From Psammoneis japonica (Eukaryota): a stretch of 26,690 nt of DNA. A model generated the notes under the pieces. That model ran no database searches, was not told where the DNA came from, and worked only from the letters and a program-made list of their open reading frames with translations. The position numbers and the translations under genes are program-made. Shown here in pieces: positions 702 to 26,496 of the stretch (the first letter of the stretch is position 1; each line of letters starts with the position of its first letter). The DNA lies in contig QPGO01000252.1 of assembly GCA_008632985.1 (NCBI GenBank), forward strand, positions 62,001 through 88,690. The letters are read 5' to 3'.

Positions 702-3191
702 CTAGGGTGCCGTCTCGGTCGGCGTCGCTTCACGAGACACGCAAGTATCCGTCTGACATGGCATCTCTGGGGCCTTGTGCCAAAGTGCTCTAAAGTCCTT
801 AATGGCACGGACAAGGTTTGCGCTGCTCTGATACGAAAAGCCGGTGGTCTTTGTGTATCCATCAATCCCGTAAAAAGCTTCTCCGTCGACCGCAGAAAAC
901 TCAAACCGATGCGCCAAGGCGGGGTTGCTCTCAGGAAAGTCTGAGGTAGCGGCATAATCAAAGGTCCTTCCCTTATTGGTGTCCAAGGTTAGCTGGTACA
1001 GCTTGTTGTTGTACACGTAGCCAGCCACATTTACGATCCACTCGTCGTCATCGAGGTCGACACGGGGGTGAATGACTTTGCTGGGATTGGCTAAACCAAT
1101 CTTCCTTGAAAATGATGGCGCTCCCTCGCGCTCGACAAAGGTGTGAAAACCGACAATGGATGTCAAATCGCCTCTTCGAGTGGTACGTTGCACGATCTGG
1201 AATCCACTTACAGCCGCCTCAGGGCCCTTACCAGACTGATCCTCAGCACTTTCAAGCCTCCAGTAGTCGGGAGAAGCCTCGCGGTCCTTTGTGGTGCTGG
1301 GACTGATGAACTGCGTTTGGCGAAAGCGCTTCACCTGTTTCAAGGGAACACGTGGTGGGGGAAGAACAGAAGTCTTTCGCAGCTGCAAAGGTCCCAACTC
1401 AGCTACACGCAAGGTGTAGGAGAAAGACCCTCGAAAAAATGGGCCAAGACTGAAGCGAACTGCTGGTCGAACCCGCACAGTGGTGGTCCAACGATCGGCC
1501 CGGCGACTGTCCTCTGGCATGATATCCACCAACGCATCCGCCGAAAGTGACAATACTCCGGCCGCACTGACTTCTACACCCAACGAACCGCCAATGCCAG
1601 CAAAACGGGGTTTACCATCACCGACGTTGCTCACAGATACGGATGCAGATCCTAGCAACTCGACTGAGACCTCCTTTTTGCGTATTTCTGCTTTTACCTT
1701 GGCTGACATTTTTAGGCCACCCTGGATCGTTCCATTATCTCGCCAGATGAGATCTCCGCCTTTGCACACCACCACACTGACTTGTGCGAGACCCTTCACT
1801 TTGACTTTTTTGGGTGTGGCACATCCCCGAGCACTGCCCTGCACAAAAGTAAGCTCACCCGAGGGACCCGCAAAGTACTGACCATAGAGTTCCGCCGTAC
1901 GGTTCTTCGAATCACGAAAGAGCGAGTCAAAGCGATAACCGCTTTCCAAATCACCGGCCACGCTACGAGTGATCCTGGATATCCGGGCACACACTTTGGC
2001 CTTGGCGTCGTCGATGCACCCACCTGGAAACTCCACAAGCTCCTTTCCGACTGCCGGCTGGAGCTGACGGTTATTGTCAGGAAATTTAGATTCATCAGGT
2101 TGCGGTTCATCGTTCACTGGGTGCTCTTCGAGTGCCATGGCCATAGCCATTTCTTTGGGAACCTCCGTCATTTCATCACCTGTCAATGGCTCAGCCATGA
2201 GAAACATAGTTTCTTCATACATGGCGCCCTTGTTACGACTCGAGTACTGACGGATGGCATATGGCTTTCCGTCTACACGAGTTTCCAGATATTCCCACCG
2301 ATCCGGAAGAAGGCCTGCCTCCACCAGTACGCGCTGGTCTTCCGCGGCATCGTACAAACGAGCCGCCTGGTCAAACGTCAAAACGTAACGCACAAGCTCC
2401 ACTCCACCCTCCGTCACGAACCCATCCTCTTCCCACATGTCCATCATGTCTTCGTCATCCTCGTCCAACACATCCGCGCCACGAGGTGCTTCTGCGGAAA
2501 GGACGTTTGGCTGACTCTGGCTCCACGCCACGGTAGCTGCGTTTTGCTTGTTATACACAACAGAATACTCATCCCAAACAAACATTCGTTCCCCTGTGGC
2601 GAGGCGACGAACATGGGGTCCATCGGATCCATCCGGCAGAGGGTCACATTCGACAATGTCCAGGCCTTCAATGCACATTTGCATGTGCTGTGTGTGCGTT
2701 TTATGTGCGCGTCGCAATAGACCAAAAGGACCAGCGGGCGACGGAGCGGGAGTGTCTGGCTCGGTTGGCGTGGAGCTGGGATTGGCAGAGGGTCCAATGG
2801 TTGGCTCGAATGTCATGGGAGCCACACTTGGTGCCGAGCTAGGTTTGAGACTTGGAGCCACGGTGGGGTGGAAGGTTGGGGAGTTCGAGGGAGACATGCT
2901 TGGTGACACGGATGGAGCACTCGTGTGAGACATGCTGGGGTGAGCGCTGGGCGAAGCACTCGGCAGTGATGATGGGGAATCTGCCCCCTTCGCAATTTTG
3001 TTCTTGTCTTTCTTGTCCTTTTTCAAATCACGAACCGCCATCTTGCTCGTTTGTCCGCGAAGGCGACGCGGGAGAACAACCTTGTCGTCAATGACTCCCG
3101 CAGATGCCGCGGAAGCAAAACTTGAATTAGCTCCATATGATGCCGAAAGAAGTAGAAGGGCAAGCCAAGTGGTGGCAAAGGAACACTTCAT
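702..3191 (-). CDS. Secreted 829-aa protein: signal peptide, Lys cluster, PS/PT repeat stalk, C-terminal jacalin-like lectin domain
   Basis: Uninterrupted ORF with N-terminal MKCSFATTWLALLLLSASYG, KKDKKDK and PSASPSAHPSMS repeats. The C-terminal LDDDEWIVNVAGY...LYQLTLDTNKGRTF...FEF...FYGIDG matches the jacalin-like beta-prism pattern. Confidence 0.8.
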   Translation of the reverse strand: MKCSFATTWLALLLLSASYGANSSFASAASAGVIDDKVVLPRRLRGQTSKMAVRDLKKDKKDKNKIAKGADSPSSLPSASPSAHPSMSHTSAPSVSPSMSPSNSPTFHPTVAPSLKPSSAPSVAPMTFEPTIGPSANPSSTPTEPDTPAPSPAGPFGLLRRAHKTHTQHMQMCIEGLDIVECDPLPDGSDGPHVRRLATGERMFVWDEYSVVYNKQNAATVAWSQSQPNVLSAEAPRGADVLDEDDEDMMDMWEEDGFVTEGGVELVRYVLTFDQAARLYDAAEDQRVLVEAGLLPDRWEYLETRVDGKPYAIRQYSSRNKGAMYEETMFLMAEPLTGDEMTEVPKEMAMAMALEEHPVNDEPQPDESKFPDNNRQLQPAVGKELVEFPGGCIDDAKAKVCARISRITRSVAGDLESGYRFDSLFRDSKNRTAELYGQYFAGPSGELTFVQGSARGCATPKKVKVKGLAQVSVVVCKGGDLIWRDNGTIQGGLKMSAKVKAEIRKKEVSVELLGSASVSVSNVGDGKPRFAGIGGSLGVEVSAAGVLSLSADALVDIMPEDSRRADRWTTTVRVRPAVRFSLGPFFRGSFSYTLRVAELGPLQLRKTSVLPPPRVPLKQVKRFRQTQFISPSTTKDREASPDYWRLESAEDQSGKGPEAAVSGFQIVQRTTRRGDLTSIVGFHTFVEREGAPSFSRKIGLANPSKVIHPRVDLDDDEWIVNVAGYVYNNKLYQLTLDTNKGRTFDYAATSDFPESNPALAHRFEFSAVDGEAFYGIDGYTKTTGFSYQSSANLVRAIKDFRALWHKAPEMPCQTDTCVSREATPTETAP

Positions 3192-3298
3192 GTTTTCTGG
3201 TCAAAATGCACATGTTTCAATGCTGCCCAGAGTTTGTTCAACAACACACTGATAGCGATTTGCGGCGCATTTACTGCAACCTAGCTTCAGACCGCTGC

Positions 3299-3985
3299 AT
3301 GGTAAAAGGCCATGAAGAGTGGAAGGCTGAGAAACGGGCAGCGATCAAAAAACGCAAAGAAGAAAAGAGGTCAATACCCAAGTGGAATAGGTATGATAAT
3401 AGACTGCAAGGGGGTGTCTATGATCGAACAGTGCCTGATGGTTTGGATCAAGGGGCACGCATGGCTTTGAGTGTGGCACTGGAAAAAAAATTCGATGAGT
3501 ATCCCGACGCTCCTTATGGTGTTCAAGCAGCCATGGGAAGCAAAAGGGATTGGATACATTGGGGCTTGCGGCTCGCGTCCATGCCTTCGCGTACTCGTGT
3601 CGTCCTCGAGGAATATCAGAAAGACATCCAGCTTCACATCGATTTGCTGGACGCACTTGGAGCCCAAACTGAGGAAGGGTATCAAGGAACTTTTGATTAC
3701 GTTCGTGCTTTACACTGCATCTTTCAGGACGCCTTTAGGCGTTGTCACCTACCAGCACCTCCACGTTTGAACTTATACGCAATGGAGATTCGTGACGACG
3801 GGGCTGACACCAAGAGTCGTATGAGGTCCTTTCGAGGATACAAGTTTCGAGCCTTTGGCATTATCCAAGTAGTAAATGATCATCCCATGGAACTGATCGA
3901 GGAGGAAGAGACGCATCCAGTCATTCCAGCTACCAAACGACGAGAGTACCCAAACGTTTCCAGGACAAGGTACAATTACTACTAG
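3299..3985 (+). CDS. Hypothetical protein (~228 aa, basic N-terminus)
   Basis: Long ORF with protein-like composition. ATG 3299 was chosen because upstream starts overlap or abut the divergent gene at 3191. No recognised domain. Confidence 0.6.
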   Translation: MVKGHEEWKAEKRAAIKKRKEEKRSIPKWNRYDNRLQGGVYDRTVPDGLDQGARMALSVALEKKFDEYPDAPYGVQAAMGSKRDWIHWGLRLASMPSRTRVVLEEYQKDIQLHIDLLDALGAQTEEGYQGTFDYVRALHCIFQDAFRRCHLPAPPRLNLYAMEIRDDGADTKSRMRSFRGYKFRAFGIIQVVNDHPMELIEEEETHPVIPATKRREYPNVSRTRYNYY

Positions 3986-4266
3986 CTCAGATCAAATCGC
4001 TTATTGGGCGCAAGTCAATAGTGTGTGGCATTTGCAAAAGTCTGTGTGGGCAGAGACAATGAACAAACTGCTTTAAAGAACAATGGACTATACCTCTTCT
4101 TTTCTAGCATCTAATAGCACCATTTTTTCCACCCTGGATTCCTAGAGAGATACTTGTAATGGGACACAGGAGCTTTTCACCGAACCAGCAATCCGGCAAA
4201 ATCCATCTTGTGCCTCCCTACTCTCTACTCTAGAGCTAGTTCGGTTTTTTGTCGATCATTTCGTTC

Positions 4267-4750
4267 TCCGTCCTTCACTTCACTACGGGCGGGTGGGCTG
4301 CGCTAGTCCCGCCCTCTCACGCACGCGACGGCCTTTTTCAGTCGTGCACGCCACTTCTTCTTTGTTGTTCCATCTCGTCCTATCTCCGTAATGTCTCTTT
4401 ATGTATTTCAAAGCATGGCTGCCAATCAGGCAGCACACAGCAAACAAAACAAAACTTCCTGTTCAAAGTTCAAAACGCTGCCTGTTCTCTTTTTGTAAAA
4501 CCTTTTGCCTGTCTTGCTTGTTTGTCGCAAGTGCGCTAACCTCTCTGCTCACAAGGCTCATTTGTTTCGACTGTGTGCTGCATTCTAGAGAGTCTAGAAC
4601 AGAAGAAGGAAACTGGAGCACGAATGCTGTGTTTGCATCAGAAAAGAAGCTTGCACTTGACCTGCAAACTGTTGAATGTGCAGCATGGAGTCTGCCAGAA
4701 AGTGGCATCTCGAACGACGACACGTCGATGTTGGTTCGAGGCCCTTGGAC
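4267..4750. repeat. Degenerate direct repeat, copy 1
   Basis: Shares ordered blocks with 5804-6342: TCCGTCCTTCACTTC (4267/5804), TTTTCAGTCGTGCA, ATGTATTTCAAA, GCACACAGCAAA, AGAAGGAAACT, GCTTGCACT, TGCCAGAAAG and GACGACACGTCGATGTT (4716/6306). Confidence 0.9.
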
Positions 4751-4809
4751 CTGCCTCGCATGTCTCTTGTTGATCATTTTGTGTTCCATTGCATGAGATC
4801 CAAGAGTCA

Positions 4810-5759
4810 TCACTGTGCTTTGTGCAACATCACCTGCAATGAATGACGCTGGACTGCGGCATGTTTCCTTGCCGCTGTGCTCGAGGATGGTGCAAAGTGA
4901 ACAGCGCCATCATCATCATGCATTTCTTGTTTTGCATTTGCAAGTTGGTTTTGCAGCTGCTGCATTGTGTCCTTTTTGGGGACTCCAATCAAAGCAAACT
5001 CCTTTGATGCAGCTTGCACTTCTTTTTCAACCTTCGCCGATGATTGACCCACTTTCGCCATGTTCCAATTGAAAAATGCCACAAATTTGTCATTCCATGC
5101 TTTGTTGTCAATGGTTGTGCCATGCTTCTTCTTTCTCCATTCAAAGCCTGTTGATTCAAATGCTTCTTTTTGATCATCGTGCATCGTTGCACATCAACCC
5201 AATGAGAAAGGTGCCGAGCACATTTTCGCGGGCACCTGACATCGAATGTTCTCCAACTGGAAAACCTTCAAACTCTCTCTTGCTTCTTTTTCCAACTGGC
5301 AACATCATTTGACAGCACATGTTGCAACTGCTGGGAGACATTTGGCACGAGTGCTGCTCAATGTTTGCGTCGCTTGCTCCCCTGCTTGCCCCCGTCAGTT
5401 TCAACAACATCTTTTCTTCAGAAGAGAAGCCTCGCCGTTGTCTTTTTCTGTTGCTGGTCCAAGCCAAACCCCTTCGTTTGCTCATCTTCTCATTTTTCCT
5501 CTTGGGTGTGGATGTCGTCCATCGGGCTTTAAAGACAGAGGTTGAAGGTGTCTGAGAAGCTGTTTGCTCGTTGTTGCTGCTCTTCTCTGAGAGGTTCACC
5601 CTCTCTCTGACATGTGAACTTCTGGCCCATTGTCCTCAGTGACATCAATTGCAACTGAACGGTGCATGCAAGTTGGTTGCAGACCGATCTAAGGACGGCG
5701 TAAGAGTCGTCATTGCTGCCATCGTCGTCAAATGTCAATTTTTCTCGCGTCGTGCCCAT
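4810..5759 (-). pseudogene. Decayed helicase-associated (HA) domain gene
   Basis: HA motifs are split over three frames between about 5297 and 5075: SWKKKQE / SLKVFQLENIRCQVP / LSHWVDVQR / QKEAFESTGFEW...KAWNDKF. Possible ATG at 5759 (MGTTREKLTF). Boundaries are approximate. Confidence 0.65.
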
Positions 5760-5803
5760 TTTTCACGCCGTCTGCACTACGTACGACGATCAGCAGCCCA
5801 CCG

Positions 5804-6342
5804 TCCGTCCTTCACTTCGTGAACCTCTGACGGCTTTTCAGTCGTGCATGCCATTTCTTTGTTGTTCGTCCATTACACTGTATCTCTTTACGCTATCTCC
5901 GCTCTTTATATGTATTTCAAATGTTTGTTACGAATCAGGTGGCACACAGCAAAACAATAACGAAATTCAGTGTTTGAAACTTCCAAACGCCGCCTGTTTC
6001 CTTTTTTGCAAACTCTTTTTTCTGTTTTGCTTGTTTCTCGTTCAAACGAAGCGCTCGACTACCACTTTGTGTGCTCAGTCTCTCTTGCTCCCATGCCTCA
6101 CTGCTTTCGAAAGTACATAATATTCTAGAGAGAGAGATTCTAGAATATAGTAGAAGGAAACTAGAACACGGACTCCATGTTCACATCAAAAAGGATGCTT
6201 GCACTCTAGAGTGTTTGAGCGTACAATACTTGACCAGCAATATTTTGAATGCGCCATACGGACAGTACTACCACATGCAATTTGCCAGAAAGCGGCGTCT
6301 CGAAAGACGACACGTCGATGTTTGATTTTAGGCCACGGAACT
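5804..6342. repeat. Degenerate direct repeat, copy 2
   Basis: Colinear with copy 1 (4267-4750), with extra short segments. It retains TpA and CpG sites that copy 1 has lost. Confidence 0.9.
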
Positions 6343-6689
6343 ACCATGTCCATTATTTTTTTCTATTCTGACTGCTACCGCAGTTTCTACAGACAAACTA
6401 TGGCTGTCGGTAGAGAGCCGTCGTCTTTGTCAGAAAAGCTACAAACGAATCGGAACGTAAGGTACTGTACGTACTGCGCGCTTTACAATCAATAGTTTTG
6501 CGGTGTACCGCATAACCCATACAAAACAGAGAGATTCTCTCAAGAAGTATTTTCTATTGGTTACATGTACTGTAAATATAGGGTTCCCCGAGCCGAGTTG
6601 TACCAGCAAAGCTTGAATCAATCGCAAACAATGTTACTCCCAACTATTTGCCCAAAATTCATACAAAACGTTTCCTTGTGTACGAGGGT

Positions 6690-6705
6690 GGATTTGATAA
6701 AATCC
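6690..6705 (-). promoter_or_regulatory. Histone 3' UTR stem-loop of H2A
   Basis: Minus strand reads AACT-GGATTT-TATC-AAATCC-ACCC: a 6-bp stem and 4-nt loop, 29 nt after the stop codon. Confidence 0.85.
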
Positions 6706-6734
6706 AGTTTTGTTGTTGTTATCGTTCAAGAGAC

Positions 6735-7103
6735 TTACTTTCCCGACTTTTTCGGCAAGAGCACGGCATGAATGTTGGGCAAGACACCACCCGACGCAAT
6801 CGTGACTCCACCCAACAGTTTGTTGAGCTCCTCGTCATTCTTGACCGCCAACGTAATGTGCCTCGGCACGATACGGCTCTTCTTGTTGTCTCGTGCGGCA
6901 TTGCCGGCCAATTCCAAAATTTCGGCACAGAGATACTCCAACACGGCAGCAAGGTACACGGGCGCACCCGCTCCCATTCTCGTGGCGTACTTGCCCTGAC
7001 GGAGATAACGTCCGATACGACCCACGGGAAACTGCAAACCAGCCTTGGCCGATGCGGTGGTGCTCTTTTTCTCGCCACGACCTCCTTTTCCTTTTCCAGA
7101 CAT
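6735..7103 (-). CDS. H2A: Histone H2A
   Basis: [10 protein letters not shown]...[10 protein letters not shown]...[12 protein letters not shown]...IVPRHI...LLPKKSGK, 122 aa. Confidence 0.99.
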
Positions 7104-7450
7104 GATGACTTGTTGTTGTACGTGAATCAAAAAATATTGTGAGGCTTTGCTCGGTCTTTTGCAAAAAGGCAAAATACCGAACAATTTTCTACGACAAACG
7201 TGGTATGCATTTCACGTAGATTCTGTGGAACGCGCCAGGATGGACGACGGACCACGTAAGGACACTATAGCAAAAAGTATGAAAAAATATTCTGGCGCGA
7301 GCCAAAAAAGTCGCAAGTAGAACCTACACAAATTTTGTACGAGACATTTTTCGGAATCTTGGGCCCCACAGCTCAGCTCCCTCCGGCGGCTTGCGCGGCT
7401 TCAACGTTCTTCTCACAAATCGTGCCGAGTCAACAAAGCAACAGCAACAG
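7104..7450. promoter_or_regulatory. Bidirectional H2A/H2B promoter region
   Basis: Lies between divergent histone genes. Contains inverted CGCGCCAG/CTGGCGCG (7231/7292) and three CACGTA motifs. Confidence 0.6.
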
Positions 7451-7662
7451 GTAAGCACGACACTCGCTGCCGTTCCCGTCCTGCCTCTTTCCTCTACCAT
7501 GATACTGTTGCTGTGATTCTGTATATTGTTGTAATGACGAGAGACGCAATGGCGGCGGCGGACCGTATGACGCTGTATGCATCGGTTCTCGTTTTGTATG
7601 GCTGTGCGTGTCTTTTTCACCTCTACTATGCGTGACTCACTTTTTCTCTCGCTCTCTTACAG
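7451..7662 (+). other. Predicted 5' UTR intron of H2B
   Basis: CAG|GTAAGC donor at 7451, TGACTCAC branch-like site near 7633-7640, a pyrimidine tract, and TACAG acceptor 8 nt before the ATG. Confidence 0.75.
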
Positions 7663-7670
7663 TTTCCACC

Positions 7671-8021
7671 ATGGCAAAGACCCCATCCAAGCAATCGGCC
7701 AAGGCCCCGAAAAAGGCTGCCACCACCAAGCGCTCCAAGAAGCGTACCGAGTCGTACTCGTCCTACATTTACAAGGTGCTCAAGCAGGTCCACCCCGATA
7801 CCGGTATCTCCAAAAAGGGCATGAGCATCATGAACTCGTTTATCAATGACATTTTTGAGCGCATCGCCACCGAAGCGGGCAAGTTGGCCACCTACAACAA
7901 AAAGGCGACCCTGTCTTCCCGAGAAATTCAAACGGCGGTCCGTCTCATGCTTCCCGGAGAACTCGCCAAGCACGCGGTTTCCGAGGGAACCAAGGCGGTG
8001 ACCAAGTTTTCGTCTGCTTGA
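7671..8021 (+). CDS. H2B: Histone H2B
   Basis: MAKTPSK...[21 protein letters not shown]...[20 protein letters not shown], 116 aa. Confidence 0.99.
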
Positions 8022-14624: not shown

Positions 14625-15561
14625 TGCTATGGCAAATATGAATAGTATTGCGTGATCAACGACCTGTGGACGCCATTGTCGACACTGTTCTCAAGCGGGT
14701 CTCAGTTTCCCTTCGTCAACAAAAATGTCGCCAACAAAAATTGCGCCGATGACACGACTGATGAAGATGGACGGATGGACGGACAGAAGGCATTCTCAAT
14801 GTCTGTCCATCATACGTCCTCTATTCTGGGCCGTACAAGTATACACAAAGATTCTACGAAGCGTGATTTGTACAGGAATCATGGTACAACCACATTTTAA
14901 AGAAGTTATTTGTTATTCGTGTATAGAGTATTTTATACATCGAGTACGTATGCACCTTCGTGAAAGACGTACCAAAGAAAAACGTATGTAGGATATGTAC
15001 TATGCCCCACATTGGCGCGCTTCTGCCACACAACGCCACTGATCGATCCTCACCACACTGCGTGCAAGTCTCCCTCTGGCAGTCATTCGTGCCGCTTGTT
15101 GCGTTCAATCAGAAGGACTGTGCAGTTATCATGAGGTCGTTCACGTCATCTGCTATTCTTGCTGTTACCATTTGTGGTGAGTCAACGAAAAACAAAGCCT
15201 TTTTCTCCGTCATGTTTGCACCACCACGTGAATCGGCGAAGACCGACAGCGAACGCTTTTTTCGTGATCGTTGGTGATGGCTTCAGTACTAATTCCGTAG
15301 AATCAACGTGCTGTAGATTTTACGGTGACGCGCCGTATATCGGTTTCAACACGTGTATGAAGTGACATCATCAGTATTTATCAATGGCTTCTTACTTCAA
15401 GCTTTTCGTTAAATGATCACGACGTTTCGATGTCTTCAGCGACAGGCGTCAGTCGTCAACTCGAGCGTGTTGACGTGTGGTGTTGTTGCGTGTGCGTGTT
15501 CTGTTTTGACGACCAGAAGGGATTCCCACTTTTTTCTACGAAGAAGTTGTGATTGCTGACC

Positions 15562-17106
15562 ATGGCTAATCGTCGTCCTAACACTCTGCCTCTTTCACCC
15601 GTGCTGGTTTTGATCGTTTCAGCATGTCAGACGATTGACAACAGAGCAGTTGCTTTTACGTCTCCCTGCGGTGTCTCAAGAAGTCGCCCAAGTTCTTGCG
15701 AAGCCCTTCACGTCAGCATGTCTTCTGTTTCTGCATCTTTGGAACCGTCTTCCATGTTTGGCTCTGATTTGGAACGTGAACTGAAAGAGCATCTCGCCCA
15801 TACACAGAAGAAAAGCGGACCTAGATCGTCTATGAAGCGTCGCAAAAAGCCCCGCACCATGATTAGACCAAAGAGTTTGAACAGTAGCAGCGCGAAAATC
15901 GAATCTTCATCGACACCTTCCAAGAAGAAAATGAAGAAGTATCCTGATCTTTTGAGTTTTGAAGAAGAGAAACAGCTTACGAATGATCTCCGTACACTGC
16001 GTACTGTAGTAAGGATTCGCGACGAGTTGACAGCATCCTTTGCGGACGTTCCTGGACTGGAAGTGCACGATGATCTCCACAGTTACCCTACCGAATCGCA
16101 GTGGGCCAAGGCATGTGGTCTCAGTGTTATGCAACTTCGCCGAATCATGCATGATGGACAAGAAGCTCGGTCGAAACTCGTTTCTGCGAACGGGGGTCTC
16201 GTAACTTCGATTGCCAAGAAACACTACTATTCGCTCAAGCACGCAACGGAGGCTGGGGGCGGTGTTGGTACATTCTTTCACTGCAAGACATGATTCAAGA
16301 AGGAAATTTGGGTGTGATGGAAGCTGCCGAGCGATTTGATCCGGGGCGAGGATTTCGTTTCAGCACATATGCAACGTGGTGGGTAAGGCAGCGGATATTG
16401 AAATCCATATCAGAATATTCCAGAGTAATTCGGTTGCCTGCTCACGGTAAGTCACTTGGACATTACTGCTCGGTTTTTCGGCTTGTTGCCGTGTTTCCAG
16501 TCCGGTCTCTAATTCGTTTTGTTATGTCGTTTTGATCCCTCAGTGCACACAATGCTGAACAAAATCAGCAGAGCGCGACAGGAGATGAACCAGGAGATTG
16601 GACGCATGCCGTCAGATCCAGAACTTGCTCATTTTTTGGAGATCCCGATTGAAAAGCTTCAAATGTACACCGATTCCTCTAGAAATGTCGTCTCTCTTGA
16701 GTTACCGGTCAACCCGGGCGGGAAAATGAAGGAGGACAGAAGAACTCTAGGGGACAAGATCGCTTCTGACTCTCCGACGCCGGAAGAGGATGCCGAAATG
16801 GATTCACTACGACGAGATATTCGTGCAGTCATTAACGAGCTTGCCATAGATGAGCAAGACGTGTTGATGGCCCGATTTGGTTTGGAGGATGGAACTCCGA
16901 GAAACGTGGAAGAGACGAGTAAGAAGCTTGGAATTTCTAGGGACCGCGTTCGAGTTGTGGAAGCTCGAGCGTTGAATAAGTTGCGACACCCCCAAAGAAA
17001 TTACAAACTGAAAGAGTATGTGGGAGGTAACGAAGAAGAAGAACGACTACAGGATCACTTGGATACACTGCCGAACCAGTCGCCTGAAAGAATATGGTCA
17101 TTTTAG
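15562..17106 (+). CDS. Nuclear-encoded, plastid-targeted sigma-70 family RNA polymerase sigma factor (frameshift near 16272; intron 16447-16543)
   Basis: Region 2 ([15 protein letters not shown]...[37 protein letters not shown]), region 3, and region 4 ([22 protein letters not shown]). The GTAAGT...CAG intron gives RLPAH-VHTML. The leader contains AVA|FTSP. Confidence 0.93.
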
Positions 17107-18037
17107 ACAATACTTTGTAAATAGAAAAGTAGAACACAATTTGAAACCGAGATCTTTCCTTTATAGGCAATTTCACCTGTCGATTGGAAACAAACACCGG
17201 CTCTTTCTTCGAGCTCAATACCTGTTACTAGTAGAGCATTGCGCTTTTGTGTTCTAAAGCGCTTTCCTCGATTGCAGTTGAACGTTATCCAAAGCAAATC
17301 GCCATCTCCTTATCGGACTCGAGATCCATTTTTCCTGTTACTTATTTTTGAGTGTCAAGCTCTAATACCCAGAAGATCCCAGAGACAGCCAGAAAGCAGT
17401 TTTGACCTACCGTATCCCAAGTTACTGTACGCCTTATGGTAACATGTAGGCCTAACATGGTATAGTTTCAGTAGTCGTTGTTAGTTTTGAGTTGCCATTC
17501 GAAAACGGAGAGGACTTTCGAAGCATCAAGGCTGTCTGTATTATAGTTTGCAGTTGAACAACACTCAGACGCGTAGAAGCACATGTTGCATGTTCAGAGT
17601 ATGGCAGCATCACATGCATTGCTCGTTGCGCTCTAATACCAATATGGCGTTACAATACTTCTTCTAAATGCTTGCAATTAATAATACATTCTCGGCTACT
17701 CTCTAGTGTGAGAGAAATGGTCTTTCGAAACATAAGAGACCAATGGAGAGATACGTGTGTTTGTTGTTGGTAGGAGTACTTCATAACACCACCCAAAACG
17801 CTCCGCGCCACGGAATCCTTGTTTGAATTGTCATAAGCACCCCAGATGCTGACTCTTTGGTGACATATTATTTTGAGACATTATAGAAATCATTGTTGGC
17901 AAAAGACTGCAATGCCATGCAACTTCCGAAATAAAAAAACTCATGGATAATCTGTAGCAAAGCAACGAAACTAATCGAGCATGATGATACCACCCAGTAG
18001 CTGCATATAGCTTGACTCGTAAAACCAAAAATAGCTC

Positions 18038-19294
18038 TCAAAGCTCTTGTGCAGAGTCAAGAGAAAGGTGTCGCTGAATCCAAAAGGACATTAATGCAAG
18101 AAAGCACAAGATTCCCAAGAAAACAACAAACGGACCATTGTGAGTATCAGAAGTTGTTGTCGCCGCTGTTGTTGTTTTGCTCAGGTCATTGTGTTTTGAG
18201 TTGCGCTTGCTCTTTGGCACAGGACGATTCCTTTGAAGCTGAGGCGACGACTCACCACGCATTTCATCACTGTGCTTGTTGGTATCGCTTGCCTTGTCGA
18301 CCCATTGACAAACTTCCTTTGCGAGCTTCTTGTTGGATTTAAATTGCAGTGCTTGTTCCTTGTTTATTCTTTGCTCAAGTACAAGTCCCTCTCTATGGTT
18401 GGGATGCAATACAAGTAGTCGTCGAATCGAATCACGTGCCAATTTCCATTTTTGCAATTCAAAATATGCCTTGGCTCGCAACAGGAGTGCGGTTTCTTGC
18501 AGTGATAATGGCTGTGACGATGACGCTTCGTGCTCTTGTTTCTTGTACGTCAACATTTCCAATACTAACGTACAAGCCCAGGCTGCCGCCTTGCGGTATT
18601 CATAGGGACGGTTCTGTGCAGACTTGTCGGGCAGTCCAGCGAGTTGCATCATGCATCGTGAGAGATTGAGCAAGATTCGTTCTTGGATATGATTGTCCTT
18701 GTCATCAGTTAGCAAACTCAGGAGTACTTGTGATTTTGGTAAAGTGACTTCTTCATTGGTTTGATACGAAACCGCATCCACAGAATCCTCCTCTACACAA
18801 TCCACTTCGTAAATCTGAATGCTCTTGTGTTGCGCCAATTTTGCTGCAATGACACAACCGACCGTCAAGTCACTGGATGTTGCCAGGGCAGCTTCGTACC
18901 AAGACGCAGCCATAGTGGCATCGCCCAACTGGAACAAGGAGTCGGCTCTTTCTTTGAACGTGCAGTATGAGTGTGATGATGATAATACATTCACAGGGTC
19001 TTCAAACTCCAGCAAGGGAAGTAGCTCCTGACTCGACAATGCCCTTTCTTCTTCTTCATCTTGCCGCAACTCGAACTTTGGACAAATTATAAAGGACGAT
19101 TGTTGGCTCTCCAAGAGTATCCGAGGTGCCGAATCATGCATCAAGACGCAGCAGGTTGTTTCATCGCCCGCCTCTGCTGCGTATTCAACGGTTGCAACGG
19201 TAGCTTGACCCGTCAGTCGTCGGCGTCCTCCCTCACTTTTTTCCAATCGACACACACGAACCACAGAACCAACTTTAAGCTCGTGATCCTTCAT
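18038..19294 (-). CDS. TPR-containing protein with C-terminal transmembrane anchor
   Basis: TPR-like helices KERADSLFQLGD...AASWYEAAL, ILLNLSRC and ALLLRAKAYFELQKWKLA. C-terminal hydrophobic stretch FVVFLGILCFLALMSFWI. Confidence 0.8.
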   Translation of the reverse strand: MKDHELKVGSVVRVCRLEKSEGGRRRLTGQATVATVEYAAEAGDETTCCVLMHDSAPRILLESQQSSFIICPKFELRQDEEEERALSSQELLPLLEFEDPVNVLSSSHSYCTFKERADSLFQLGDATMAASWYEAALATSSDLTVGCVIAAKLAQHKSIQIYEVDCVEEDSVDAVSYQTNEEVTLPKSQVLLSLLTDDKDNHIQERILLNLSRCMMQLAGLPDKSAQNRPYEYRKAAAWACTLVLEMLTYKKQEHEASSSQPLSLQETALLLRAKAYFELQKWKLARDSIRRLLVLHPNHREGLVLEQRINKEQALQFKSNKKLAKEVCQWVDKASDTNKHSDEMRGESSPQLQRNRPVPKSKRNSKHNDLSKTTTAATTTSDTHNGPFVVFLGILCFLALMSFWIQRHLSLDSAQEL

Positions 19295-22793: not shown

Positions 22794-25700
22794 TCATCGC
22801 TTCTTGCCTTTCTTTCCTCCAGACTTTTGTTTCTTCGCAGCCTTACTTGCTCCAGGCGCCGATATTTTTACGTTCGGGCATATCGCTTGAACCCAGTCGT
22901 TGTCTGCTACTCGTTTGATGAGTTCCTTATCCCTTTCGGCAGTTGATGATTGCTCCTTCTCCATTTTCAGAAACATCTCCGCACACTGCTTTGCTGCCTT
23001 TCCGCGCTTCTGTGCTCCAGGTGTCAGCTTGACCTTGTATTTATACTTCGAAAGCGTTTGATAAGGGGCACAGACCGGCATTACGTACAGAAGGGAATCA
23101 TCAGGATGCGGCTTTCCAGTAAGCTTACTGATTTCCGTTGTGTCATCTACCATTTCTTCCCCCTCTTCGGTATCTTCCGCTACAATACCCTCCTCCGCAA
23201 GCATTTCCCTCCAGGCTTCTTTTTCCTTTTCCTTCTCAGACTTTGTCTTTCTTCGAGCACCATCTGTTCCATCCGCCGACGTGCTATTGTCCACGCTCTC
23301 GAGACTCTCGTGACCGTACTTCTTTATCGTTCGTATGATTCCAGCCAGACTCGCCGAAAAGTTGTCCACCCGAGTCGACTCTTTCAGGGAAAGCAACCTC
23401 TTTGCTGCAGCAAGTTGCTGCTCTTCGGACTCCAAGGTTACCAATGATTCCAATACATCCGCATCGAACTTGTCCCATCGGACCAAAGTCTCATCGGTGT
23501 CTGGCGATCTGACCGAAACACATGTGGCCAGGACGTCTTGAACAGAGTTAGGCAGGGTTTCCACTACTTTCGACGCATCCTTCACCAGAAGCTCGGCTGC
23601 GTCGGCAGCAGCTTTCTCCTGTGACAAGGATACGGTAACGCGCTTGCTGTTGTTTTTATTTGGTGATTTCTTTTCTCCGCCGTGCAAAGCTAGCATTGCC
23701 AATTCTCTGTCTTCGTCATCTTGATTATTATACCTCTTGGCGGCTCGCTTTAGTTTTGATTTCTTACCTCGCTTGGGTGTAGAATTAGCCTTGGGCTCAG
23801 GTGTCACTGGCTTTTCTTTGCGCTGTTTTTCTTTCTCCTTTTGTTCCCTTTCTGCGGCGGCTTTCTCCGCTTCTTCCAAGGATCCATATTTCTTGATCAG
23901 TTTCCGATCTCGCACGGACAATCCTTTCTTCTTCACAGGCTTCTCTTCATTATCCGGCACAGAGGAATTCGTGGGTTGATCAGAGGCTTGAACGTCGCCC
24001 TGTTCATCCGGTTTCTCATCCTGAGATTTTACTACGTCGCTGTCGTTTGTAAAGGGCTCCGCTTCAGCGGGCGACGCCAAGTCAGCATTTCGGGCTTCTG
24101 GCACTTCACCAACAGCTGCATCTGTATTGACGTCTTCTTCCAGCGTCACGGGCGGGGTTATGCTTTCCTGAAGTTGGGGCTCGGATGTAGGCTCAAACAC
24201 GCTCTCTTCAATGATATCTAGCTCCTCCTCTTCGAGATCCGCATCCATCAAGGCGAAATCACGCCTTTCATTCTTGTGCCGTGCAATACTGTCGTCGTCA
24301 CCTAGCCGGAACAGCACAGCCAAACCCATTTCCAGTTGCGATGGAGGGAGAAAATTCTTCTTTCCTCTCACCATGAACGAACCAACCGTAAGATACTCGC
24401 CGCTGGGTGCCGTTTTCGATACTTGGCTTGGTTCCACCCACCACGCCGACGTGACCATGCGAGATGACCACGCCGACGACAAACAAATCGTAAAGTTTCC
24501 AGCCTCTCGTAGAGCCTGGTCTGAAAGTGGTAAAACTCGTGTTTTGCCATTAGCCCCTTTGGTTCGTTGCCGCTTGGCACGAAGGACACACGACGCTGCA
24601 CCATGAACGTCGGCGTGCAGATACGCATCCCCGGGTCGCAAGTATCTCTTGACAAGCATTTCATTTTGTTGTGCATCGCGGCCACCGAGAACCAAATAAT
24701 TGTCACTTGTAATGAACCAATGAAACTTTTCAAACCAATGAGACTTGCGCATGGGAGCTTGGATGGACGCTGTCTTTGATTTTTTCTGAGCCTCTTCCAA
24801 TTGACGTTGTGCGGTTGCCTCGGCCGCCTTGAGCGCTTTTGTAGAAGCTTCAATCGTCTTTTCCGACTTTTCCTTGGCGGCACGGTATCGGTCAAACATT
24901 TCTCGAACATTGCCATAGGCGCTCTTGTTGAGTGACACCGACACATCAATTGGTTTGCTGCTGCTGCTCTCGCCGGAAAGAGTGTCGGGCAACGAGAGCA
25001 CCATGGAATCCTTTTCCAAATCCAAACGTTTTATCAAGAGCGCAATCGGGTTTTGGTTTTGTTGTTCCACCTCCACGAGCTGTTCTAGCGCCTCCCAGTC
25101 CATACCGGTATCCAAGGCAGAATTGATGACGGCAAGAGCCTTGTCTACATCATCCGCGTGGTACTTTACCAAATGTGCATTTCGTTCGAGCGCATCCTGT
25201 TCCTTCTTGAGAGACTCGACACGCCGTTCCAAATCCTTTTGAACCTTGTTTAATTTTTCGCGAGCGGCGGCTTCTGCCGATTCCGCCCTCAGGGCACGCT
25301 TTTGTCCGCCAATGTGAAAGAAAAAGTCATCCACCGCCTCGGCAAAATTGTCGTATTGGATGGAAAGTCTCCCCTCGTGCTGTTTCAATAAGTGAGGCTG
25401 GAATTCTTCCAAGATCTTGTCCGAGTGTTTCAGCACGGAACTATCGGCTGAAGGATTTGCGTCAGCAGCCGGCCGCTCGCGTACAAAATGTACCCTCCCG
25501 AATCCTCCTTCGACAAAACTTGCAAAACCTCTCCACCGTTTCTCTCAAGGATGATACCAACAAATCCCAGGCTGAAACTGGAACTGTGTCTGACAAATTT
25601 GTGGCTGACACTTGTTGATTTGGCGATAGACCGGCGCACAAGATGCAGTGTTCCAAAAGAGACGGTCCGTAGTGATAACACCCGAGGATGGCTTCAACAA

Positions 25701-26496
25701 GAGTGCCTGCAAAGCAAATGTCACATGACGTAAGATCAAGCTATTTTTTCTCAGACGCGTACGCAGTTTTTTCATATCACTGAAGCTGTCTTACCTTCAA
25801 TGGTATGCTGTCTTTTCCCTTTTTGGAGCTCTTCTTGGGATCAGCAGCATCTTGGTCCTTCGGCGCCAGTTGCGAGACAGCCCACTGCAGAGCATCTGAT
25901 CCGTTCATGGCCAATATTCCATCCGCGTTATTATCCTTATCACCACTCTCATCCTTGTCTGGTTGTACATACTTGCCCATACTGGTGGCATACGTCACGG
26001 GATAAACATGACCGACTCGAACTTGCACATCTTGATCCGCGTATTCGTGAGAACGAAGCAGAGCGAGAATTTCGTATTCTTTGTTCGTCAACAAGACGTT
26101 TCCCCTTGCATACAATTCTAAAATGAGTGAATGCCGATTGCTACCCGTTCCAAAGGTAAATTCCACGACCCGATCCAGCTTGCCCAGTTGAACGGCTCGT
26201 TCCAATCGCAATCCCCTCAAGTGCTTTCGCAGTTTGCTACAAAACGGCGACGGCATGCCTTCTTGTTGGAGCGATGCTTGGTGGGATGTGGTATGAAACC
26301 GAATGCCCGATTCTAAATACAAAATTTCTTTTACAGAGCCATCGAATTTAAACAAATAGCCGTCGGCACCCTCCGAGTAACCGTCGTAAATGTTAATAAC
26401 GCGACGTCCCAACAAGGTGCGTTGCACGTGCGATACCATGGCGGCCACGTCGACTCCGTCAAAACGGACTTTTGAGTGTGTTTTGCCTTTTCCCAT
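22794..26496 (-). CDS. NEMF: Ribosome quality control factor NEMF/Rqc2/SDCCAG1 (intron 25707-25794; three 1-bp deletions at ~25677, ~25540, ~25481)
   Basis: NFACT-N (PSPFCSKLRKHLR, LDRVV, ILELYARGN), NFACT-R (WFEKFHWFITSDNYLVLGGRDAQQNE, VSKTAPSGEYLTVGSFMVRGKKNFLP) and NFACT-C (PVCAPY...YKYKVKLTPG). Confidence 0.95.

What the first reader, a model, noticed from the sequence alone, without database searches (positions are those of the whole stretch)
4590..4750. Repeat-copy comparison shows direction: TA->TG/CA together with CG->TG/CA
Seen in sequence: the part of repeat copy 1 inside the desert differs from copy 2 as follows. AACTAGA (TA at 6162) vs AACTGGA (4614); GAATA (6146) vs GAACA (4600); ATACGGA vs GCATGGA; AGCGGCGTCT (6291) vs AGTGGCATCT (4701); AATGCGC vs AATGTGC. 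The left part of copy 1 (4267-4596) still has about 10 TA, so the mutated domain has an edge inside the repeat. Inference: CpG methylation and TpA loss acted on the same chromatin domain, which links the TpA process to methylation-based silencing. The sites are few and polarity is assumed from only two copies.
Basis: partly seen in the sequence, partly recalled or inferred. Interest (0 to 1): 0.7.

Follow-up and report, generated by a model that had tools for sequence, protein, structure and literature searches.

The report
TA-free, CpG-poor DNA domain
About 1.2 kb of an alga-like nuclear genome has lost practically every TA step and half its CG steps, apparently turned into TG/CA, and one copy of a local repeat runs into this zone; the zone is real and unexplained, but the repeat comparison alone is weak evidence.

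Summary
A formal alignment shows the repeat evidence is thin. In the 160 bp of copy 1 inside the desert, steps that are TG/CA in copy 1 but TA/CG in copy 2 outnumber the reverse 9:1 (MAFFT) or 6:0 (second aligner). That is not significantly different from the part outside (5:3 or 4:3). Half of the aligned TA differences are transversions.

The stronger evidence is the whole domain. Positions 4597-5529 hold no TA, and 4597-5778 hold three. Against every other 1-kb window, this one has the lowest TA o/e (0.015), the lowest CpG o/e (0.58) and the highest TG+CA o/e (1.62). Its total of pyrimidine-purine steps is normal. The lost TA and CG roughly equal the gained TG/CA.

Copy 2 looks like ordinary non-coding DNA of this window, so copy 1 is the derived copy. 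Fragments of a third copy support this at two sites.

The signature is the reverse of fungal RIP. The domain holds a coding-like orphan ORF with amino-acid shifts in the predicted direction.

Best reading: local transition-type decay at both palindromic YpR steps. Methylation was not tested, and I found no known mechanism for the TpA loss.

The parts
4267..4596 (+). Repeat copy 1, left part, outside the desert. TA content is normal (10 TA in 330 bp).
4583..4599 (.). Inverted pair of TTCTAGA (TTCTAGA-GAG-TCTAGAA). It contains the last TA before the desert and marks the left edge. It resembles a heat-shock-element core; that resemblance is recalled, not tested.
   Evidence: TTCTAGA occurs 9 times in the window against 2.5 expected, and 5 of the 9 lie in the two repeat copies. 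Also.
4597..4755 (+). Repeat copy 1, right part, inside the desert. It has 0 TA, 7 CG and 30 TG+CA in 159 bp. This is the stretch the finding is about.
4693..4732 (.). The best conserved block of the repeat, which includes CGACGACACGTCG. It differs from copy 2 at 3 positions of 40 and keeps its five CpG inside the desert.
4597..5529 (.). Strict TA-free run of 933 bp.
4597..5778 (.). Whole TA-poor, CpG-poor, TG/CA-rich domain. It has three TA, at 5530, 5690 and 5702. The left edge is sharp and the right edge is graded.
4810..5184 (-). Coding-like orphan ORF of 124 aa. It has no Tyr, few Arg, and an excess of His, Gln and Ala. There are weak leads to the helicase-associated (HA) domain. The reading frames upstream of it are broken.
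5804..6345 (+). Repeat copy 2, with ordinary non-coding composition (28 TA in 542 bp).
6123..6145 (.). The TTCTAGA pair of copy 2, the counterpart of 4583-4599.

Best explanation
The tail of repeat copy 1 lies inside a domain of about 1.2 kb (4597-5778). In this domain, DNA that once looked ordinary for this genome has had practically every TpA and about half of its CpG replaced, mostly by TpG/CpA. That original DNA was a now decayed, possibly HA-like, coding sequence on the minus strand plus 160 bp of a dispersed 0.5-kb repeat.

Shown: the composition, the balance between lost and gained steps, the sharp left edge, and copy 1 being the aberrant copy.

Inferred: the cause is a locally acting mutational process working through transitions on both DNA strands. 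Its CpG part is most simply the deamination of methylated cytosine in silenced DNA. Its TpA part (A to G, or T to C on the other strand) has no known enzyme.

The graded right edge, and the left edge right after a promoter-like TTCTAGA pair, would fit a process that starts at the left edge and fades over about 1 kb. That step is speculation.
For: (1) Domain 4597-5689 has TA 1 (41.6 expected from the rest of the window), CG 34 (64.6 expected), TG 125 (76.7) and CA 96 (80.0). The deficit is about 71 and the gain about 64. YpR steps make up 23.4% against 24.1% elsewhere.

(2) Among 1-kb sliding windows, the desert window is outside the range of all others on three measures. TA o/e is 0.015 (others 0.30-0.80). 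CG o/e is 0.58 (others 0.75-1.38). TG+CA o/e is 1.62 (others 0.94-1.41). Its YpR total of 232 is inside the range 207-278.

(3) I converted all TA and 45% of CG of ordinary window segments into TG/CA in silico. This gives TG 120+-11 and CA 125+-12, against 130 and 103 observed.

(4) Repeat steps go 9:1 or 6:0 in the predicted direction.

(5) Copy 2 has 52 TA/kb, TpA/ApT 0.90 and (CA+TG)/(AC+GT) 1.06. These lie inside the spread of 11 putative non-coding stretches (TA 30-70/kb, TpA/ApT 0.45-1.0). Copy 1 is therefore the odd one.

(6) The third-copy fragments carry TA, and they keep a CG where copy 1 has TG (read by eye).

(7) The 124-aa ORF is coding-like, with 3-periodicity 4.3 and codon log-odds +5 to +15, similar to H2A. 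Yet it has Tyr 0 (background 2.7%), Arg 3 (8.3 expected), His 7 (3.0 expected) and Gln 11 (5.7 expected). CA at codon positions 1-2 is 18 against 8.7 expected. That matches what TAY to CAY and CGN to CAN would give.

(8) A contig of a public run, at normal depth 60.7, carries the same sequence with 3 differences in 3.8 kb. This may be the sample the window was assembled from.
Against: This is a single locus. No whole genome was available, so no second desert could be sought.

No enzyme is known that would remove TpA specifically.

Loss of 41 of about 42 expected TA is more complete than known hypermutation systems usually achieve. That fits selection at least as well.

Half (4 of 8) of the aligned TA differences in the repeat are transversions.

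The in-silico conversion does not fully reproduce the word content. TGC is 53 against 33+-5.7 and TGCA is 23 against 13.3+-3.8.

The desert part of the repeat is not more diverged than the outside part (73% against 70% identity).

The domain roughly coincides with a possible minus-strand transcription unit. That would also fit a constraint at the RNA level.

Methylation was not measured.
Confidence: 0.45

Rival explanations
1. Selection keeps the stretch free of TA (UA in RNA). The domain would be a transcription unit on the minus strand, running from about 5780 to the TTCTAGA hairpin at 4597. Its RNA or DNA would have to lack UA/TA, for example to escape a UA-cutting nuclease, to lack poly(A) or stop signals, or to avoid TA-targeting insertions. 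Under this reading CpG loss is a separate matter.
For: The removal is nearly total. The domain spans a coding-like ORF plus its flanks. Half of the TA differences in the repeat are transversions, as expected if any change that removes a TA is accepted. Unchecked notes of this scan describe phage regions where a dinucleotide bias is read as maintained rather than mutational (e1-5320246).
Against: The frames upstream of the ORF are broken. No relative of the ORFs exists in three protein searches, so a function to protect is not evident. The YpR total is unchanged and the TG/CA gain matches the loss, which points to transitions almost only. In contrast, the repeats differ by transitions and transversions in near equal numbers, 67 to 55. 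Selection against TA does not explain the CpG loss. The RNA folds are not unusual, with z from -0.1 to -1.6.
Confidence: 0.25
2. The TA-free stretch came in from elsewhere. It could be an inserted foreign or mobile segment, or a gene-conversion tract from an unseen TA-free paralogue, that happened to carry a copy of the repeat tail.
For: The left edge is sharp. The content is orphan sequence.
Against: The first 160 bp of the domain are homologous to native repeat copies. There are no terminal inverted repeats and no target duplication at the flanking TA (read). Nothing matches in phages, plasmids or metagenome contigs. Codon use of the ORF fits this genome. GC content equals the surroundings.
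Confidence: 0.1
3. An RNA copy of the region was edited (A to I at UA) and then copied back into DNA.
For: A-to-G change after U is the preferred context of ADAR-type enzymes (recalled). The domain is about the length of a transcript.
Against: Both TG and CA arise. In the repeat the split is 2 TA to TG and 2 TA to CA. In the whole domain the o/e values are 1.65 and 1.64. Editing of one RNA strand would give only one of the two. There is no poly(A) trace at either end. It does not explain the CpG loss. Other A contexts are untouched: AA is not depleted.
Confidence: 0.05
4. The polarity is reversed: copy 2 gained TA by a RIP-like C-to-T process, and copy 1 keeps the old state.
For: Copy 2 is more AT-rich (GC 0.43 against 0.49-0.51). 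Outside the desert, sites with T in copy 2 and C in copy 1 outnumber the reverse 21 to 9.
Against: Copy 2 has the composition of ordinary non-coding DNA here. The reversal cannot explain 1 kb of unique TA-free sequence. The third-copy fragments share TA and CG with copy 2.
Confidence: 0.03
5. The pattern is chance, amino-acid bias or an assembly artefact.
For: The second longest TA gap (2840-3128) is explained by Ser/Pro-rich coding sequence.
Against: The probability of no TA in 933 bp is 1.6e-15 at the window rate and 1.9e-9 at the rate of the TA-poorest gene. The run crosses coding-like and non-coding parts. Contigs of a public run at normal depth agree with it.
Confidence: 0.02

Closest known systems
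Repeat-induced point mutation (RIP) of Neurospora and other fungi, including its spread into the unique linker between close direct repeats (recalled). Diatoms carry DNMT4 enzymes related to fungal RID, of unknown function (PMC9998398, passages read).
   Same: It is a local burst of transitions in a set dinucleotide context, next to direct repeats, with a sharp border. It has a possible tie to DNA methylation and silencing.
   Different: RIP turns CpA into TpA, so TA rises and CA/TG falls. Here TA disappears and CA/TG rises. TpA/ApT is 0.016 and (CpA+TpG)/(ApC+GpT) is 1.94, both opposite to RIP. Only one repeat tail and the unique stretch are affected, not both repeats.
CpG decay by deamination of 5-methylcytosine in methylated DNA
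   Same: CG is replaced by TG/CA. CpG o/e is 0.58 in the domain against about 1.0 elsewhere.
   Different: CpG decay does not touch TpA. Methylation of this locus is not known.
Very-short-patch (Vsr) repair bias in E. coli, held to deplete CTAG in favour of CCAG/CTGG (recalled)
   Same: A repair bias on T:G mismatches turns TA-containing words into CA/TG words.
   Different: It is bacterial, genome-wide and tied to one 5-bp context. It is not a bounded domain.
Immunoglobulin somatic hypermutation (AID plus polymerase eta) (recalled)
   Same: The mutated domain is 1-2 kb, starts just after a promoter and fades with distance. C to T changes occur together with A to G changes at WA.
   Different: AA is not depleted here. 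TA loss is total. There is no evidence that such enzymes act in this lineage.
Dinucleotide-biased islands noted earlier in this scan in phages (e1-5320246; AI note, unchecked)
   Same: There is local TpA depletion with CA/TG gain.
   Different: That case is a phage genome, 8 kb long, and was read as a maintained bias. It has no CpG component.

Membership tests
RIP (repeat-induced point mutation) | TpA/ApT raised (about 0.89 or more) and (CpA+TpG)/(ApC+GpT) lowered (about 1.03 or less). These thresholds are recalled. | tested here: not met
   The desert gives 0.016 and 1.94, against 0.62 and 1.21 for the window.
RIP (repeat-induced point mutation) | Both copies of a duplicated segment are mutated. 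| tested here: not met
   Only the right 160 bp of copy 1 are affected. Copy 2 and the left part of copy 1 have normal TA.
Methylation-driven CpG decay | CpG deficit with a matching TpG/CpA excess. | tested here: met
   CpG o/e is 0.56-0.58, the lowest of all 1-kb windows. TG and CA o/e are 1.65 and 1.64.
Methylation-driven CpG decay | The DNA is methylated at cytosine. | not testable with these tools
   No methylation data could be reached.
LTR retroelement (the two repeats as LTRs) | Internal gag/pol or reverse transcriptase, a primer-binding site and a polypurine tract. | tested here: not met
   The internal ORFs give no Pfam family. No primer-binding site or polypurine tract is seen by eye at the repeat borders. 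A third, dispersed copy exists.
Helicase-associated (HA) domain, PF03457 | Score at or above the Pfam gathering cut-off (28.4 bits). | tested here: not met
   The best hit is 9 bits, E 2.3, in frame 4992-5267(-). The atlas feature score is 0.79 for ORF 4813-5184(-), which is a lead only.
Structured RNA | A fold more stable than shuffles, or an Rfam match. | tested here: not met
   z is -1.08, -0.20, -0.12 and -1.62. Rfam gives only the histone stem-loop at 6665-6710.

The most novel reading that the evidence does not exclude
A so far undescribed local hypermutation, a kind of reverse RIP, removes TpA by A-to-G/T-to-C transitions on both DNA strands. It acts on the same bounded, silenced domain in which CpG decays. 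That would imply a DNA-level adenine- or thymine-directed editing activity used in genome defence by a diatom-like alga.
Probability: 0.2. Interest if true: 0.85.

Novelty: new variant of a known kind. Interest (0 to 1): 0.6.

Why it matters
Context-specific local hypermutation is known in eukaryotes as RIP, as CpG decay and as AID/APOBEC action. All of these are cytosine-based. A domain in which TpA is erased with transition-type products would point to something new. It could be an adenine- or thymine-directed mutator, or an unknown reader of the TA step strong enough to purge it by selection. Diatoms carry RID-like DNMT4 enzymes of unknown function (PMC9998398, passages read). A repeat-linked mutational signature in such a genome would therefore give a concrete locus to test. 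I found no description of TA-free domains in the four literature searches I ran. That is weak evidence of absence.

Tried and rejected
Whole-genome search: no genome is held for this window. A scan for further deserts, and collecting all repeat copies as outgroups, were therefore not possible.

No further copy of the repeat lies in the window (nhmmer and blastn).

Metagenome contigs: the conserved 25-nt core gave 0 matches. The neighbouring 282-aa protein gave 90 pattern matches, none confirmed.

Phage and plasmid collections: no match to the region.

Protein searches of the desert ORFs gave nothing. The 124-aa ORF found no hit at near lengths (5 candidates) or at longer lengths (115 candidates). 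The 141-aa ORF, run against 1.84 billion representatives, gave one hit (P0001). That hit is a repeat protein matching a basic stretch and I judged it spurious.

The idea that the desert is a hypermutated copy of the neighbouring H2A gene was rejected. Only chance-level matches were found.

Double TG/CA differences as a sign of hypermutable CpG in both copies: 6 at YpR steps against 5 at RpY steps, so no signal.

Strand asymmetry of products: CA 130 against TG 103 on the minus strand. By my own estimate p is about 0.08, and after correcting for base composition the o/e values are equal. It was not used.

Sequencing runs: no RNA holder was listed. Run X2 has no cover over 4503-5838 while it covers neighbouring genes very unevenly. 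Neither point is used as evidence on expression.

Its letters at most informative sites are unknown.

No tandem or internal repeats, no Rfam family and no unusual RNA fold were found in the desert.

The bacterial-type promoter/terminator scan was at chance level.

The scan's notebook holds no notes for this genome.

Full report
Setting. The window is nuclear DNA of a plastid-bearing eukaryote, probably a diatom-like alga. That placement is inferred, not established.
- It carries a histone H2A gene at 6735-7184(-), with a histone 3' stem-loop match at 6665-6710 that falls below Rfam's cut-off (29.4 against 34 bits).
- It carries a sigma-70-type factor, NFACT/NEMF, an EcKL kinase and an alpha/beta hydrolase.
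- It has long, intron-poor ORFs.
- Window-wide TpA o/e is 0.55 and CpG o/e is 1.00.
- No whole genome is held for it.

The repeat. Two direct copies lie at about 4267-4755 and 5804-6345. They are about 75% identical and differ by several indels. No further copy is in the window. Contigs of a public run show at least one more, diverged copy elsewhere in the genome, at half the depth (28.9 against 60.7). The repeat is therefore a small dispersed family and not only a local duplication.

Both local copies carry an inverted pair of TTCTAGA. Five of the window's 9 matches lie in the two copies, against 2.5 matches expected in the whole window. Both also carry a well conserved block around CGACGACACGTCG.

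Check of the observation. The left part of copy 1 has exactly 10 TA and the right part has none.

MAFFT alignment, part inside the desert:
- Of 8 aligned TA of copy 2, none is kept in copy 1. Four are TG/CA and four are transversions.
- Of 10 aligned CG of copy 2, five are kept and five are TG/CA.
- Outside the desert, 5 of 13 aligned copy-2 TA are kept.

Over all YpR steps, copy 1 TG/CA against copy 2 TA/CG stands at 9 and the reverse at 1. Outside the desert the counts are 5 and 3. A second aligner gives 6:0 (p 0.03) against 4:3, with Fisher p 0.19 for inside against outside.

The domain as a whole is what carries the weight.
- There is no TA from 4597 to 5529. Only three TA lie in 4597-5778, at 5530, 5690 and 5702.
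- The chance of such a run is 1.6e-15 at the window's TA rate and 1.9e-9 at the rate of the TA-poorest gene. In 300 Markov simulations the longest gap never passed 389 bp.
- In 4597-5689, TA is 1 against 41.6 expected, CG 34 against 64.6, TG 125 against 76.7, and CA 96 against 80.0. About 71 steps are missing and about 64 gained. The share of pyrimidine-purine steps is unchanged (23.4% against 24.1%).
- Among all 1-kb windows this one is the extreme on TA o/e, CpG o/e and TG+CA o/e, and it is normal on the YpR total.
- Turning all TA and 45% of CG of ordinary window DNA into TG/CA in silico gives TG and CA totals close to those observed. It gives too few TGC and TGCA.

This pattern is what transitions at the two self-complementary YpR steps would leave. 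It is the opposite of RIP, with TpA/ApT 0.016 and (CpA+TpG)/(ApC+GpT) 1.94.

Polarity. Three points bear on it.
- Copy 2 has 52 TA/kb, TpA/ApT 0.90 and a CA+TG ratio of 1.06. Those values fall within 11 putative non-coding stretches of the window. The tail of copy 1 has 0 TA and 189 TG+CA per kb, above the maximum of any outside window. Copy 1 is therefore the aberrant copy.
- The few letters of the third copy that the tool printed contain TA at ordinary density. Just after 6322 they keep a TA near the TA of copy 2 and a CG where copy 1 has TG (read by eye). These are only two informative sites.

What lies in the domain.
- The six frames are long only because TAA and TAG are absent.
- One frame stands out. 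ORF 4810-5184(-) has 3-base periodicity (4.3, against 3.2 for H2A) and codon log-odds of +5 to +15 under a model trained on the window's genes. All other frames stay near or below zero.
- The frames upstream of it are broken.
- It has no relative in three large searches and no Pfam family.
- There are two weak and separate leads to the helicase-associated (HA) domain. One is atlas features at 0.79, with the nearest clusters mostly from Bacillariophyta. The other is PF03457 at E 2.3 in a neighbouring frame. I treat HA as a lead, not a membership.
- The ORF's make-up is shifted as the transitions predict. Tyr is 0, Arg 3 against 8.3 expected, His 7 against 3.0, and Gln 11 against 5.7. CA at codon positions 1-2 is 18 against 8.7, and CG at those positions is 1 against 6.3. 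Each shift is only nominally significant.
- There is no structured RNA, no internal repeat and no likeness to H2A.

Edges.
- The left edge is sharp. It sits directly after the TTCTAGA pair inside copy 1.
- The right edge is graded, with three TA in the last 250 bp. It ends about 25 bp before copy 2 begins.
- CpG is low from about 4400 to 5700. However, 4400-4596 is CG-poor in both copies, so the CpG edge cannot be set.

Reality of the sequence. An 8-kb contig of a public run, at depth 60.7 like its neighbours, covers 3000-6792 with three differences and no gaps. All three differences (4735, 5138, 5139) lie in the desert. The run may be the sample the window was assembled from, so it is not independent proof.

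Explanation. I favour a local mutational process at the DNA level (0.45).
- For it: the mass balance, the normal YpR total, the broken frames, the orphan status and the shifted amino-acid content fit decay better than design.
- The CpG half has an obvious candidate in the deamination of methylated cytosine. For the TpA half I found no known mechanism.
- Against it: the removal of TA is almost total, there is only a single locus, and the TGC/TGCA excess is unexplained.
- The main rival (0.25) is selection for a TA-free, or in RNA UA-free, stretch. Notes of this scan on phage islands with similar bias show that such readings are made elsewhere, though those notes are unchecked.
- Import of a TA-free segment, an edited RNA copy, reversed polarity and chance are less likely. 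The reasons are given under the rivals.

Literature. Four full-text searches returned nothing on TA-free domains or RIP-like signatures in diatoms. One paper was read in passages (PMC9998398). It states that DNMT4 enzymes related to fungal RID occur in many diatoms and that their function is unknown. A fifth search, on the HA domain in diatoms, gave nothing useful. Statements on RIP thresholds, linker mutation in Neurospora, Vsr repair, ADAR context, somatic hypermutation and heat-shock elements are recalled, not taken from a call.

Verdict. The pairing of TpA and CpG loss holds for the whole domain. The tie to methylation and chromatin is untested, and the repeat comparison cannot carry it. 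The domain itself is a strong, unexplained anomaly worth a genome-wide follow-up.

Noticed in passing
window 4735, 5138, 5139: The window differs from the 8-kb contig of run X1 at only three places across 3000-6792, and all three lie inside the desert. None of the three creates a TA.
   Followed up: no
window 3000-8000 (run X2): Run X2 is labelled as probable DNA, but it covers genes very unevenly. Depth is about 7 over the 282-aa gene and 270-405 over the histone genes, in contigs of a few hundred bases. It looks more like a transcriptome.
   Followed up: no
window 4392-4444, 5777-5871, 5979-6028, 6276-6322: A third, diverged copy of the 0.5-kb repeat exists elsewhere in the genome at about half the depth of this locus. 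Its likeness to copy 2 starts at 5777 or earlier, left of where copies 1 and 2 begin to align.
   Followed up: partly
window 4597-5779: TGCA occurs 23 times against 6 expected, and TTGCA/TGCAA 19 times against 3.9 expected. Converting TA and CG alone does not produce this much.
   Followed up: partly
window 6665-6710 (-): A histone 3' stem-loop match lies behind the H2A gene, at 29.4 bits, just under Rfam's cut-off of 34.
   Followed up: no
window 2840-3128: The second longest TA-free gap (288 bp) lies in the Ser/Pro/Ala-rich start of the 829-aa ORF. Amino-acid content explains it.
   Followed up: partly
window 22794-26496 (-) and 15553-17106 (+): The NFACT/NEMF gene and the sigma-factor gene are each split into two ORFs, which suggests introns.
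   Followed up: no
window 17000-19000: This is the second most CpG-poor and TG/CA-rich stretch of the window, with CpG o/e 0.75-0.83 and TG+CA o/e up to 1.41. Its TA content is normal to high.
   Followed up: no
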